DNA from: Shigella phage Z31
Strand: one strand, 5' to 3'
DNA: 64,000 nucleotides
Sequence record: MN655999
This document shows, one piece after another, positions 52,681-53,131 of the stretch. The translations under genes were made by a program, and so were the position numbers. The notes under the pieces were generated by a model. It had not been told where the DNA came from, did not search any database, and saw only the letters and a program-made list of their open reading frames with translations. The stretch's first letter is position 1; each line of letters opens with the position of its first letter.

Positions 52681-52826
52681 TCTTTGTAGATAAGCTACCC
52701 AGACTTGCTTAAGGTCTGTAGCGATGTGCCTTGTTGGGTTTAAATCTAGAATTTACCCTTTCACCCTTTGTGGTCGCATACTCACAGGTAAGCTTAATAA
52801 CTTATCTACAAAGATGATTACCAGAC
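52681..52826. repeat. 15-bp perfect inverted repeat (ATCTTTGTAGATAAG / CTTATCTACAAAGAT) enclosing ~115 nt
   Basis: Exact reverse-complement arms at ~52682-52696 and ~52812-52826. Confidence 0.6.
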
Positions 52827-52861
52827 CGTTGTTTATCATCTTAAGTGCTACCATTACACCA

Positions 52862-52895
52862 ACTCGACATCTGCCGAGTGAAGGAATCGAACCTT
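52862..52895 (-). other. tRNA-derived fragment: perfect T-arm (GAAGGTTCGATTCCTTC) plus 3' acceptor-like strand without a matching 5' half
   Basis: T-arm motif identical in style to neighbouring tRNAs but no D or anticodon arm upstream; followed by hairpin ACTCGGC-AGAT-GTCGAGT. Confidence 0.4.
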
Positions 52896-53131
52896 CGCCT
52901 ATTTCTTTACCGGAGAAATAGATTGTTTAAGTTTTGCTGTAAACGGTCTTCTGTAAATTTGTTGAGCCAGACCAAGTTTTAAATTTTTTCAAAATTAAAT
53001 TGGCTTGAAAATATCATACGTACTTGCTGAATTTGGTCTTCTGCTCCTTTAAAGAATACTCGTAAGAACTCTTTAAGGGAGGGGCTAAATAGCCCTCTCA
53101 AAACATCATCTTGAAATACTTATTATAATTT

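What the first reader, a model, noticed from the sequence alone, without database searches (positions are those of the whole stretch)
52681..52900. tRNA remnant and a 15-bp long-range inverted repeat form a large structured element
A perfect T-arm (GAAGGTTCGATTCCTTC) with a 3' acceptor-like strand lacks any matching 5' half, consistent with a decayed tRNA gene. Immediately downstream, ATCTTTGTAGATAAG and its exact reverse complement lie ~115 nt apart and would close a long stem. A long terminal stem plus tRNA-like module is also the layout described for bacterial Y RNAs, which ties to the vWA-protein hypothesis; this is speculative.
Basis: partly seen in the sequence, partly recalled or inferred. 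Interest (0 to 1): 0.45.

Follow-up and report, generated by a model that had tools for sequence, protein, structure and literature searches.

The report
Permuted tRNA-like Y RNA in phage
What looked like a broken tRNA gene is a conserved, circularly rearranged tRNA look-alike RNA encoded just downstream of a Ro60-like protein gene in a Felix O1-type phage, and it belongs to a large family of phage "Y RNA-like" RNAs that I could not find described anywhere.

Summary
The sequence features are real, but the interval is not a decayed tRNA. On the transcribed (minus) strand the T-arm and 3' acceptor strand are followed at once by a 4-nt loop, a fully complementary 5' acceptor strand and a canonical D-arm. 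This is a circularly permuted tRNA-like fold. An 8-bp helix (52949-52942 / 52830-52823) closes it, and the motif UACAGCAA directly follows the helix's 5' strand. A 471-aa gene lies 1.07 kb upstream on the same strand. Pfam calls it DUF2828+DUF7788, and its AlphaFold model matches Ro60 structures over its full length. The same RNA plan recurs beside homologues of this protein in unrelated phages and prophage-like contigs. Hits are almost all on the protein's strand, usually within 1 kb of the gene, and show strong covariation. T5 and a TROVE-Ro60 mycobacteriophage lack the motif. It forms a covarying ~23-bp stem, but that stem closes a separate adjacent domain, not the tRNA-like module. Best reading: a YrlA-like Y RNA partner of a divergent phage Ro60. 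It is a new variant of a known kind. Protein binding and function are inferred, not shown.

The parts
54021..55436 (-). Gene for a 471-aa Ro60-fold protein (Pfam DUF2828 + DUF7788, vWA-like). It is 97% identical to Bas63 gp130.
   Evidence: Pfam. PHROG 850 'RNA-binding protein'. AlphaFold model pLDDT 87.6. The top 10 Foldseek PDB hits are all Ro60, full length, TM up to 0.66, E about 1e-8. The MIDAS-type D279/S281/S283, T349 and D381 are invariant. Identity to Bas63 gp130.
53882..54002 (-). Two strong sigma-70-like promoter matches (54002-53974 and 53911-53882) between the Ro60-like gene's stop codon and the first tRNA.
   Evidence: These are consensus matches only (10/12 each). The total number of sites in the region is not above the shuffle expectation.
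53614..53684 (-). Short Y-like unit between tRNA-Glu and tRNA-Met: GAAGACCAA-UUACAGCAA ... UUGGUCUGG. It has the closing helix and motif but no tRNA-like domain.
   Evidence: Covariance model R1, 28.4 bits. Strict pattern scan.
53460..53517 (-). Short Y-like unit between tRNA-Met and tRNA-Asn: GAAGACCGU-AUUCAGCAA ... ACGGUCUGG.
   Evidence: R1 27.9 bits. Strict pattern scan.
53044..53099 (-). Two conserved hairpins at the 5' end of the Asp-Lys spacer. The second has a 17-bp imperfect stem and a UACG loop.
   Evidence: Inverted repeat I3. Conserved across three genera, with one compensatory A-U to G-C change in pSJ21. Function not studied.
52967..53041 (-). Short Y-like unit 'A': GAAGACCAA-AUUCAGCAAG ... 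CUUGGUCUGG.
   Evidence: R1 27.9 bits with filters off. Strict pattern scan. It is a direct repeat of the 5' end of the full unit (D1).
52821..52951 (-). Full Y-like unit 'B' (131 nt), the core of the finding. It consists of closing helix P1, the motif, and a permuted tRNA-like domain.
   Evidence: R1 97.5 bits, E about 1e-18. The MFE fold reproduces the architecture, z = -3.6.
52942..52949 (-). P1 5' strand, AGACCGUU.
   Evidence: Pairs with 52830-52823 (I14). The equivalent helix is 97.9% paired, with up to 6 pair types per position across the family.
52934..52941 (-). Conserved single-stranded motif UACAGCAA (family consensus U(A/U)CAGCAA). Proposed binding determinant for the Ro60-like protein.
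   Evidence: Protein binding is inferred, not shown.
52899..52921 (-). V hairpin resembling an anticodon arm: CUAUUUCU-CCGGUAA-AGAAAUAG.
   Evidence: I15. Partial Rfam tRNA match of 20 bits. The loop is not conserved between genera.
52880..52896 (-). T-arm GAAGG-UUCGAUU-CCUUC.
   Evidence: Invariant in Ounavirinae.
52862..52879 (-). Closed acceptor hairpin: ACUCGGC - AGAU - GUCGAGU (7 bp).
   Evidence: Fully compensatory variants occur in Sf19/CHB7/ESh21 and in Michonne. Family-wide covariation.
52845..52861 (-). U8-G9 linker plus D-arm GUGU-AAUGGUA-GCAC.
   Evidence: U8, A14, G18-G19 and A21 are kept across the family.
52821..52830 (-). P1 3' strand AACGGUCU followed by GG. The first of these G's is invariant in the family.
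52676..52819 (-). Long-stem domain. A helix of about 23 bp (52819-52796 with 52699-52676) closes about 96 nt.
   Evidence: RNAalifold on 16 sequences shows 4 compensatory swaps plus a coordinated loss of one pair between two lineages.
52694..52722 (-). Inner hairpin 'C' of the long-stem domain: GCUAC-AGAC-CUUAAGCAA-GUCU-GG-GUAGC. It is a miniature of the unit, with an AGAC...GUCUGG stem and an AGCAA loop.
   Evidence: CAGAC/GUCUG covaries (G-C to A-U). The resemblance to the unit is my reading of the sequence.
52736..52758 (-). Hairpin presenting the conserved, self-complementary loop AAAUUCUAGAUUU.
   Evidence: ATTCTAGATT is invariant in both sequence versions of the domain, while the stem sequence differs. 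Not analysed further.

Best explanation
The interval encodes a non-coding RNA of the Y RNA kind. It is most like bacterial YrlA and is made from the phage's tRNA-array transcript. Its 131-nt core (52951-52821, minus strand) has two modules. The first is an 8-bp closing helix formed by the RNA's two ends, followed directly by the single-stranded motif UACAGCAA. I infer that this is the docking site for the Ro60-fold protein encoded 1.07 kb upstream. The second is a circularly permuted tRNA mimic: V hairpin, T arm, a 7-bp acceptor stem closed by a loop, and a D arm. I infer that it presents a tRNA-shaped surface to tRNA-handling enzymes or tRNA-sensing factors. Three shorter units in neighbouring tRNA spacers carry only the helix and motif, much as YrlB relates to YrlA. 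Flanking tRNA processing by RNase P and 3' trimming would release these RNAs. The 7-bp acceptor hairpin may itself be opened by RNase P, as happens in M. smegmatis YrlA. Shown here: the structure, its conservation and covariation, the protein's fold, and the two-way genomic linkage of RNA and protein. Inferred: physical binding, processing, and the biological role. The role is probably modulation or tethering of the Ro60-like protein during infection. In the close relative Bas63 the 97%-identical protein counters the Ppl defence system.
For: Anatomy: searches show P1, the motif, and the V/T/AS/D junction (z = -3.6). Conservation: 288 phage records match, and the acceptor hairpin has three different complementary sequences in three genera. 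Protein: DUF2828+DUF7788, and the top 10 PDB fold matches are all Ro60 over the full length. Protein to RNA: covariance model R1 gave 188 hits at E<=1 over 988 kb, with 187 on the protein's strand. 60 of 64 unrelated loci have a unit, 36 within 200 nt of the gene and 52 within 1 kb. In cellular or MAG contigs, 78 of 78 hits were on the protein strand. A full unit of 70.6 bits starts 100 nt after the Ro-like gene of mycobacteriophage Gardann. RNA to protein: a 21-base RNA signature found 48 contigs. 42 have the gene in the stretch, all on the same strand and 20-666 nt away. 5 of the other 6 lack upstream sequence. Covariation: 94.6% of cells are paired, against 60% in shuffles and 34-46% when slid. 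22 of 23 pairs changed on both sides. The score is 0.347 against about 0.04. Specificity: a strict helix+motif scan gave 75 hits on the protein strand and 0 on the other in 920 kb, 0.3 in shuffles, 0 in T5 (40 kb), 0 in Bxz1 (50 kb), and 4 in the window, all in the tRNA region on the minus strand. Units also occur beside the gene in loci with no tRNA genes at all (L052, L093). Layout matches YrlA as described in PMC4201824. R1 also picks up a T/AS/D module 180 nt upstream of the TROVE Ro60 of Bxz1. Bas63 gp130 is 97% identical and has the same four units. gp130 is Ro60-like and counters Ppl (preprint 10.1101/2024.10.10.617714).
Against: No expression, processing or binding data exist for this RNA. 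gp130 alone, from a plasmid or inserted into T7, is enough to counter Ppl, so that activity does not strictly need the phage RNA. The YrlA motif GNCGAAN0-1G is absent from the 5' end. The protein is not a Pfam TROVE member and shares only 11-16% identity with the matched Ro60 structures. A natural isolate, ESCO50, lacks tRNA-Asp, unit A and most of unit B, so the RNA is dispensable on a laboratory host. The connecting 'anticodon-stem' helix is only moderately supported across the family and is not conserved within Ounavirinae. The structural alignment used for the pair counts was fitted to the model, which inflates the paired percentages. The model's E-values are rough.
Confidence: 0.78

Rival explanations
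1. Decayed tRNA pseudogene next to a fortuitous inverted repeat.
For: ARAGORN calls no tRNA here. Rfam gives only a partial 20-bit tRNA match covering the V hairpin and T arm.
Against: A matching 5' acceptor strand and D-arm are present in permuted order. The element is conserved across genera with compensatory changes in the acceptor hairpin, P1 and the long stem. The same architecture occurs in unrelated phages.
Confidence: 0.02
2. A genuine permuted or two-piece decoding tRNA (for example tRNA-Thr GGU). RNase P would open the acceptor loop, CCA would be added, and the two pieces would stay paired and be aminoacylated.
For: [quoted passage not shown] The V hairpin looks like an anticodon arm with GGU. 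One GenBank record annotates tRNA-Thr here (H50). N-CCA starts the acceptor loop in 7 of 31 family members (P = 4e-7) and in phage Michonne. M. smegmatis YrlA is cut by RNase P and CCA-tailed (PMC4201824).
Against: The 'anticodon' loop is not conserved: CCGGUAA with C33 in the window, CUAUAAA in ESh21, ACUUUCA in Michonne. Most family members have no anticodon arm at all. The acceptor stem sequence changes completely between genera. The module is always embedded in P1+motif. The window's loop has no CCA.
Confidence: 0.05
3. The helix+motif units act in cis. They could be operators through which the Ro60-like protein controls its own or neighbouring transcripts, or processing and stability signals in the tRNA-array precursor, rather than free trans-acting Y RNAs.
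For: Many short units lie 10-60 nt upstream of the gene's start, just before the ribosome-binding site, or 20-33 nt after its stop. In the window they occupy tRNA spacers.
Against: Bacterial yrlA and yrlB are likewise co-transcribed next to rsr, so adjacency does not discriminate. A full tRNA-shaped domain is hard to explain as a simple operator. Units occur in tandem arrays of 2-4. This rival still accepts that the protein binds the motif.
Confidence: 0.12
4. Some other known tRNA-related RNA: a two-piece (permuted) tmRNA, a tRNA gene interrupted or permuted by a group I intron, or an integration-site tRNA fragment.
For: Permuted tmRNA genes also place the T-arm and 3' acceptor strand before the 5' acceptor strand. 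The long-stem domain superficially recalls an intron core.
Against: ARAGORN finds no tmRNA. There is no G3-U70, the D stem is full, and there is no tag reading frame. Rfam finds no tmRNA, group I intron or ribozyme even at E<=10. No integrase context was seen in the annotated neighbourhoods I read.
Confidence: 0.01

Closest known systems
YrlA (Y RNA-like A) of bacteria and of mycobacteriophages with TROVE Ro60 (Chen et al. 2014, PMC4201824)
   Same: Both are about 110-130 nt. The 5' and 3' ends pair. An optional V stem-loop is followed by a T stem-loop, a closed acceptor-like stem-loop and a D stem-loop, with tRNA tertiary-contact nucleotides kept. Both are encoded within a few kb of a Ro60-fold + vWA protein on the same strand, often with a shorter companion RNA (YrlB). 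My model cross-detects the Bxz1 module at 26 bits.
   Different: The conserved 5' motif is U(A/U)CAGCAA directly after the helix, not GNCGAAN0-1G. The partner protein is DUF2828/DUF7788, not Pfam TROVE/vWA_Ro60. The helix+motif signature is absent from the Bxz1 locus. In the window the RNA sits inside a tRNA array and is accompanied by three short units and a long-stem domain.
Yrl1/Yrl2 of Thermus phage phiLo with phiRo60 (PMC12135203)
   Same: Phage-encoded Ro60-fold protein with short adjacent stem-loop RNAs carrying a small single-stranded motif. More than one RNA per phage. The phiLo Ro60 structures 9KOP and 9L5Y are among the best fold matches to the window protein.
   Different: The phiLo RNAs use a CGAA motif, and that paper's text does not use the term 'tRNA-like' for them. 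Binding there was shown by EMSA and cryo-EM. Here it is only inferred.
Stable 'tRNA-like RNAs with unknown functions' of phage T5 (RNA1, RNA2, RNA3)
   Same: Non-tRNA stable RNAs embedded in a phage tRNA array and annotated as tRNA-like.
   Different: The 40-kb T5 stretch I fetched has no helix+motif unit, and model R1 gives only tRNA-pair artefacts there. T5 did not appear among the phage records I saw listed for this protein; I did not test T5 directly.
Circularly permuted tRNA genes of the red alga Cyanidioschyzon merolae and two-piece tmRNA genes
   Same: The 3' half (T arm, 3' acceptor strand) is encoded before the 5' half (5' acceptor strand, D arm). This comparison is from my own background knowledge.
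   Different: Those genes yield functional tRNA or tmRNA after processing. Here there is no conserved anticodon, no alanine identity pair and no tag frame, and the module is always framed by P1+motif.

Membership tests
YrlA / bacterial Y RNA | T and D stem-loops with tRNA-like conserved nucleotides | tested here: met
   The window has GAAGG-UUCGAUU-CCUUC and GUGU-AAUGGUA-GCAC. Across the family: U8 in 30/31, D-loop A..GG..A, T-loop UUCRANY.
YrlA / bacterial Y RNA | [quoted passage not shown] | tested here: met
   ACUCGGC-AGAU-GUCGAGU, 7 bp. It covaries within Ounavirinae and across the family.
YrlA / bacterial Y RNA | 5' and 3' ends pair to form the closing stem of the RNA | tested here: met
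   P1 is AGACCGUU/AACGGUCU. It is 97.9% paired, and all 7 modelled pairs have changes on both sides.
YrlA / bacterial Y RNA | GNCGAAN0-1G motif near the 5' end (proposed Rsr contact) | tested here: not met
   The 5' region carries UACAGCAA instead. The only GNCGAAG string (GGCGAAG, 52899-52893) is the V/T-stem junction, not the 5' end.
YrlA / bacterial Y RNA | Encoded within about 4 kb of the Ro60 gene, on the same strand | tested here: met
   The gene ends at 54021 and the unit starts at 52951, a gap of 1,069 nt, both on the minus strand. The same linkage holds across the family.
YrlA / bacterial Y RNA | Partner protein is a TROVE-domain Ro60 orthologue | tested here: inconclusive
   No Pfam TROVE hit even at E<=1, whereas Bxz1 gp220 hits TROVE + vWA_Ro60. 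At fold level, the 10 best PDB matches are Ro60 over the full length.
YrlA / bacterial Y RNA | Match to a curated covariance model | tested here: inconclusive
   Rfam gives no YrlA or Y RNA hit at E<=10. It also reports nothing at gathering threshold over the Bxz1 Ro60 locus, where a canonical module is present. The test therefore has no working positive control.
YrlA / bacterial Y RNA | Physically bound by the Ro60 protein; carries tRNA modifications; RNase P and CCA-adding enzyme substrate | not testable with these tools
   Needs immunoprecipitation, EMSA and RNA end mapping.
tRNA | Contiguous 5' acceptor - D - anticodon - T - 3' acceptor order with a conserved anticodon loop | tested here: not met
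   The order is permuted. ARAGORN makes no call. The Rfam match is partial, 20 bits against a 29-bit threshold. The loop is not conserved.
Two-piece (permuted) tmRNA | G3-U70 alanine identity pair, reduced D arm, tag reading frame | tested here: not met
   Position 3-70 is C-G. The D stem is full. I found no tag-like frame by eye. ARAGORN finds no tmRNA.
Group I intron in or around a tRNA gene | Conserved intron core, and exons that rebuild a tRNA | tested here: not met
   No Rfam intron match at E<=10. The sequence after the D arm is not complementary to the stem strand before the variable region.

The most novel reading that the evidence does not exclude
Hundreds of phage lineages carry a Ro60-like/Y-like ribonucleoprotein of their own, including Felix O1-like, KVP40-like, Campylobacter, Listeria, Staphylococcus and Enterococcus myoviruses, and mycobacteriophages. 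In this reading the tRNA mimic is opened at its acceptor loop by host RNase P and given a CCA end. That would create a two-piece, tRNA-shaped and possibly chargeable RNA tethered to the Ro60-like ring. The particle would then act as a decoy, sensor or repair platform against host defences that cut or sense tRNAs. On this view the tRNA arrays and the Ro60-like gene form one counter-defence module.
Probability: 0.15. Interest if true: 0.85.

Novelty: new variant of a known kind. Interest (0 to 1): 0.68.

Why it matters
Ro60-Y RNA particles are known in animals, in some bacteria and in a few phages with canonical TROVE Ro60. This work points to a much larger phage branch. The DUF2828-type protein occurs in 709 of 50,697 phage records. 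Its RNA partners have been overlooked: they are left unannotated, mis-called as tRNAs (Gardann 'tRNA-Asn', REP5 'tRNA-Thr'), or covered by spurious small ORFs (Phi87_08, bas63_0137). The PhageMaP preprint showed that the 97%-identical Bas63 gp130 counters the Ppl defence and guessed that some annotated tRNAs might be Y RNAs. This analysis names the actual candidate RNAs, their boundaries, a candidate binding motif and a covariance model. That makes the guess directly testable in a tractable E. coli/Salmonella phage. It also gives a second, independent example of tRNA mimicry joined to a Ro60-fold protein, which bears on the open question of why bacterial Y RNAs mimic tRNA.

Tried and rejected
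1. Group I intron or permuted intron-exon reading of the long-stem domain. Rejected: no Rfam hit at E<=10, and the exon ends cannot rebuild an anticodon stem.
2. Two-piece tmRNA. Rejected.
3. Tandem identical tRNAs as the source of the T/hairpin/D pattern in other phages. Checked with ARAGORN, and none of the 13 strict hits overlaps a tRNA call. Genuine tRNA-pair artefacts do appear among weak model hits (for example window 49656-49785 and T5 12108-12231). They lack the motif.
4. Rfam as a membership test for YrlA. Uninformative, because it also fails on the Bxz1 control locus.
5. Reverse search with the 14-base pattern AAGNNNNNNTTACAGCAAAC. I replaced it with a 21-base two-strand signature.
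6. Sequence search of the protein against PDB chains: no hit. Only the fold comparison revealed Ro60.
7. Supplementary phage list of Chen et al. 2014: not held. I therefore could not check whether any DUF2828-type phage was in their set.
8. Literature searches for a permuted tRNA in phages, for tRNA-like RNAs in Felixounavirus and for DUF2828 found nothing relevant.
9. A conserved anticodon-stem analogue (P2). Only moderately supported (58% against 29% in the control) and not conserved in Ounavirinae.
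Full report
SETTING. The window is from a Felix O1-like myovirus (Felixounavirus); 288 phage records match the interval. The finding lies in a minus-strand array of 26 tRNA genes. It sits in the 459-nt spacer between tRNA-Asp (53131-53207) and tRNA-Lys (52596-52671).

CHECK OF THE OBSERVATION. Both literal observations are real.
- The T-arm plus 3' acceptor strand lies at 52896-52873 on the minus strand. It is unique in the window, with 0 expected by chance.
- The 15-mer ATCTTTGTAGATAAG and its exact reverse complement lie at 52680-52694 and 52801-52815, with 0.02 expected by chance. 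The repeat extends to 22 nt at 91% complementarity.
- The statement that no matching 5' half exists is wrong. On the transcribed strand the order is T-arm, ACUCGGC, loop AGAU, GUCGAGU (7/7 pairs with ACUCGGC), UG, and then a canonical D-arm GUGU-AAUGGUA-GCAC. Upstream of the T-arm lies an 8-bp hairpin with a 7-nt loop that looks like an anticodon arm.

All parts of a cloverleaf are therefore present, but circularly permuted, with the acceptor end closed by a loop. Folding the 131-nt unit alone gives exactly this four-way junction. It is closed by an 8-bp helix, AGACCGUU (52949-52942) with AACGGUCU (52830-52823), at z = -3.6.

CONSERVATION WITHIN THE SUBFAMILY. The whole spacer is conserved in Felixounavirus, Mooglevirus and Suspvirus. 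The acceptor hairpin has three unrelated but always complementary sequences:
- ACUCGGC/GUCGAGU in the window;
- ACACG/CGUGU in Sf19, CHB7 and ESh21;
- ACCCUUC/GAAGGGU in Michonne, where the loop begins G-CCA.

The anticodon-like loop is not conserved: CCGGUAA, CUGGUAA, CUAUAAA and ACUUUCA. This argues against a decoding tRNA. One isolate, ESCO50, lacks tRNA-Asp and most of the unit, so the RNA is dispensable on a laboratory host.

THE NEIGHBOURING PROTEIN. A 471-aa gene ends at 54021, 1,069 nt upstream on the same strand.
- Pfam calls it DUF2828 + DUF7788 with a weak vWA match, and gives no TROVE hit. PHROGs calls it 'RNA-binding protein'.
- It has no sequence match in the PDB.
- An AlphaFold model built from 31 homologues has pLDDT 87.6. 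Its ten best PDB fold matches are all Ro60 over the full length: Xenopus, human and Thermus phage phiLo, with TM up to 0.66 and E about 1e-8. After these come only isolated vWA domains.
- MIDAS-type residues are invariant.
- The protein is 97% identical to Bas63 gp130.

A preprint reports that gp130 is Ro60-like and counters the Ppl defence system. [quoted passage not shown] Bas63 has the same RNA units as the window. The full unit there lies under a spurious opposite-strand ORF, bas63_0137.

GENERALITY, FROM PROTEIN TO RNA. The protein family is large, with more than 2,800 hits. It occurs in 709 of 50,697 phage records from very different lineages. I fetched 64 loci from unrelated viral contigs encoding 41-48%-identical homologues.
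- A purpose-written scanner looked for 'T-arm, closed hairpin, D-arm'. It found 19 modules on the protein's strand and none on the other, against 0.2 expected from shuffles. None of the 13 strictest hits overlaps an ARAGORN tRNA.
- All hits share a fuller plan. A closing helix of 6-9 bp has at least 13 different sequences. The motif U(A/U)CAGCAA follows within 0-2 nt. The linkers are A-rich, and a G follows the 3' strand.
- A covariance model built from 21 units found 188 hits at E<=1 in 988 kb, 187 of them on the protein's strand.

Two classes appear. Full units of 110-140 nt carry the tRNA-like domain. Short units of 55-75 nt keep only the helix and motif. 60 of the 64 loci have at least one unit, 36 within 200 nt of the gene and 52 within 1 kb. 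The same holds for 80 loci from bacterial and archaeal genome assemblies, where 78 of 78 hits are on the protein's strand, with tandem arrays directly upstream of the gene. It also holds for Campylobacter phage CP30A, Listeria phage AG20 and mycobacteriophage Gardann. In Gardann a 70.6-bit unit starts 100 nt after the 'Ro-like RNA binding protein' gene and is annotated as tRNA-Asn.

GENERALITY, FROM RNA TO PROTEIN. A first pattern was too weak and returned chance matches only. A 21-base signature encoding both helix strands of one subfamily found 48 contigs. In 42 the gene is in the retrieved stretch, always on the same strand and 20-666 nt away. Five of the other six have less than 410 nt of upstream sequence available.

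COVARIATION AND SPECIFICITY. On the structural alignment of 150 hits:
- 94.6% of cells are paired, against 60% in shuffles and 34-46% when partners are slid;
- 22 of 23 pairs have changes on both sides;
- the covariation score is 0.347, against about 0.04 for the slid controls;
- the closing helix is 97.9% paired, with up to six pair types per position.

The alignment was fitted to the model, so these figures lean towards the structure. The slid controls and the independent pattern scan offset this. A strict helix+motif scan that uses no tRNA features gave:
- 75 hits on the protein strand and 0 on the other in 920 kb, with 0.3 expected from shuffles;
- none in 40 kb of T5, which has a tRNA array and stable tRNA-like RNAs;
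- none in 50 kb of Bxz1;
- 4 in the window, all on the minus strand inside the tRNA region.

With filters off, the model finds the same four window units: 52951-52821 (97.5 bits), 53684-53614, 53517-53460 and 53041-52967.

RELATION TO YrlA. Chen et al. 2014 (PMC4201824) define YrlA by these features:
- a 5' GNCGAAN0-1G motif;
- near-invariant T and D stem-loops;
- an acceptor-like stem-loop between them;
- an optional V stem-loop upstream of T;
- a location within about 4 kb of the Ro60 gene on the same strand.

M. smegmatis YrlA has a 7-bp acceptor stem, is cut by RNase P and receives CCA. The window RNA meets every architectural and positional criterion. It fails the motif criterion, and its partner protein is not Pfam TROVE.

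Bxz1 has a true TROVE + vWA_Ro60 protein. It has a T/AS/D module 180 nt upstream of that gene, which my model detects at 26 bits. It has no helix+UACAGCAA unit. So two protein lineages go with two RNA motif classes, as expected if the motif is the protein contact. Rfam reports nothing at the Bxz1 locus either, so the lack of an Rfam hit in the window carries no weight.

HINTS ON PROCESSING. Among 31 distinct full units with a 7-nt acceptor strand, 7 start the acceptor loop with N-CCA (binomial P = 4e-7). This suggests that at least some members are opened there into a tRNA-like 3' end. The window's loop (AGAU) has no CCA. Two strong promoter-like sites lie between the Ro60-like gene and the first tRNA. 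Flanking tRNA processing would release the RNAs.

THE LONG INVERTED REPEAT. It forms a helix of about 23 bp (52819-52796 with 52699-52676) that closes a separate 144-nt domain directly 3' of the full unit.
- The domain exists in two sequence versions. They differ by four compensatory pair swaps and by the coordinated loss of one A-U pair.
- This amounts to essentially one lineage split, so the support is good but not deep.
- Inside, the hairpin CAGAC-CUUAAGCAA-GUCUG covaries. It looks like a miniature unit, with an AGAC...GUCUGG stem and an AGCAA loop.
- A second hairpin presents the invariant self-complementary loop AUUCUAGAUU.
- I did not find out whether this domain occurs outside Ounavirinae, and its role is open.

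MECHANISM AND LIMITS. The best-supported reading is a Y RNA-like partner of a divergent phage Ro60. The helix+motif would serve as the docking module, and the permuted tRNA mimic as the effector or decoy module. The short units would be YrlB-like companions.

Binding, processing and function are inferred. One published result cuts against a strict requirement for the RNA: gp130 alone, from a plasmid or inserted into T7, restores plating on Ppl. The RNA may therefore modulate, stabilise or redirect the protein, as bacterial Y RNAs both tether and gate Ro60, or it may serve another function. In Listeria phage AG20 the gene lies beside an RtcB-type ligase, a second RNA ligase and a phosphohydrolase. 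This recalls the bacterial rsr-yrlBA-rtcBA RNA-repair operon.

VERDICT. This is a real, conserved, structured RNA. It is not a tRNA remnant. In architecture it is a YrlA-like Y RNA, but with a different motif and a different branch of partner protein. It represents a large phage RNA family that I found neither in Rfam nor in the searched literature. Novelty: new variant of a known kind.

Noticed in passing
window 48509-53855: The 26 phage tRNAs cover 19 amino acids. tRNA-Trp is the only one missing.
   Followed up: no
window 53044-53099 (minus strand): Two conserved hairpins open the Asp-Lys spacer. The second has a 17-bp imperfect stem capped by UACG, and shows one compensatory A-U to G-C change in phage pSJ21. 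Their role is unknown.
   Followed up: partly
window 52742-52754 (minus strand): The loop AAAUUCUAGAUUU contains the self-complementary UCUAGA. It is invariant in both sequence versions of the long-stem domain, while its stem differs. This looks like a candidate kissing-loop or dimerisation site.
   Followed up: no
L117 7507-7632 (Mycobacterium phage Gardann); REP5 (H50); L032 12219-12476; L363 16749-16901: Public records mis-annotate these RNAs. In Gardann a unit is called 'tRNA-Asn'. In REP5 it is called 'tRNA-Thr'. In UAB_Phi87 (Phi87_08) and Bas63 (bas63_0137, bas63_0138) opposite-strand 'hypothetical proteins' cover it.
   Followed up: partly
L116 5959-12521 (Listeria phage AG20): The Ro60-like gene lies just after the tRNA array. 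It is close to an RtcB-type 'tRNA splicing ligase', a second RNA ligase, a metal-dependent phosphohydrolase and a tRNA amidotransferase. This is an RNA-repair neighbourhood like the bacterial rsr-rtcBA operon.
   Followed up: no
L113 10285-13950 (phage T5): The T5 tRNA region carries annotated stable RNAs of unknown function, three of them described as tRNA-like (RNA1, RNA2, RNA3). They lack the helix+UACAGCAA signature.
   Followed up: partly
L002 480-700 (Escherichia phage ESCO50); H86-H90; H100: Natural variants exist. ESCO50 lacks tRNA-Asp, unit A and most of the full unit. A Salmonella-phage subgroup carries the other sequence version of the long-stem domain. SP116 matches only the first 56 nt of the query.
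   Followed up: partly
H9 (Salmonella phage S19cd), H10 (Escherichia phage GEP101): These relatives have an insertion of about 335 bp within the 601-nt query region. GEP101 annotates a tRNA-His there.
   Followed up: no
L195 3291-3754; L197 3420-3836; L052 6317-7882: Some contigs carry tandem arrays of three or four full tRNA-like units directly upstream of the Ro60-like gene. L052 has no ordinary tRNA genes in the fetched stretch. L195 and L197 are Lachnospiraceae MAG contigs.
   Followed up: partly
L095 9396-9457; L067 9407-9471: Short units just after the gene's stop codon contain two further AGCAA repeats in their loops (ACAGCAAAC, AAAGCAAAAC, UUAAGCAAAU). This hints that AGCAA is the core recognised element and may be bound more than once.
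   Followed up: no
L053 3131-3234; L056 2100-2198; L108 7407-7505; L060 6593-6699: A third class of about 100-nt units has the helix (AAAGAUUAG...CUAAUCUG), the motif and an inserted domain of about 40 nt ending in ...ACUCGCCAAAAC, but no acceptor hairpin.
   Followed up: no
window 48683-49480 (minus strand): A 265-aa ORF lies inside the tRNA array, between tRNA-Ser and tRNA-Phe. It was not examined. A related phage has an HNH homing endonuclease next to tRNA-Asp.
   Followed up: no
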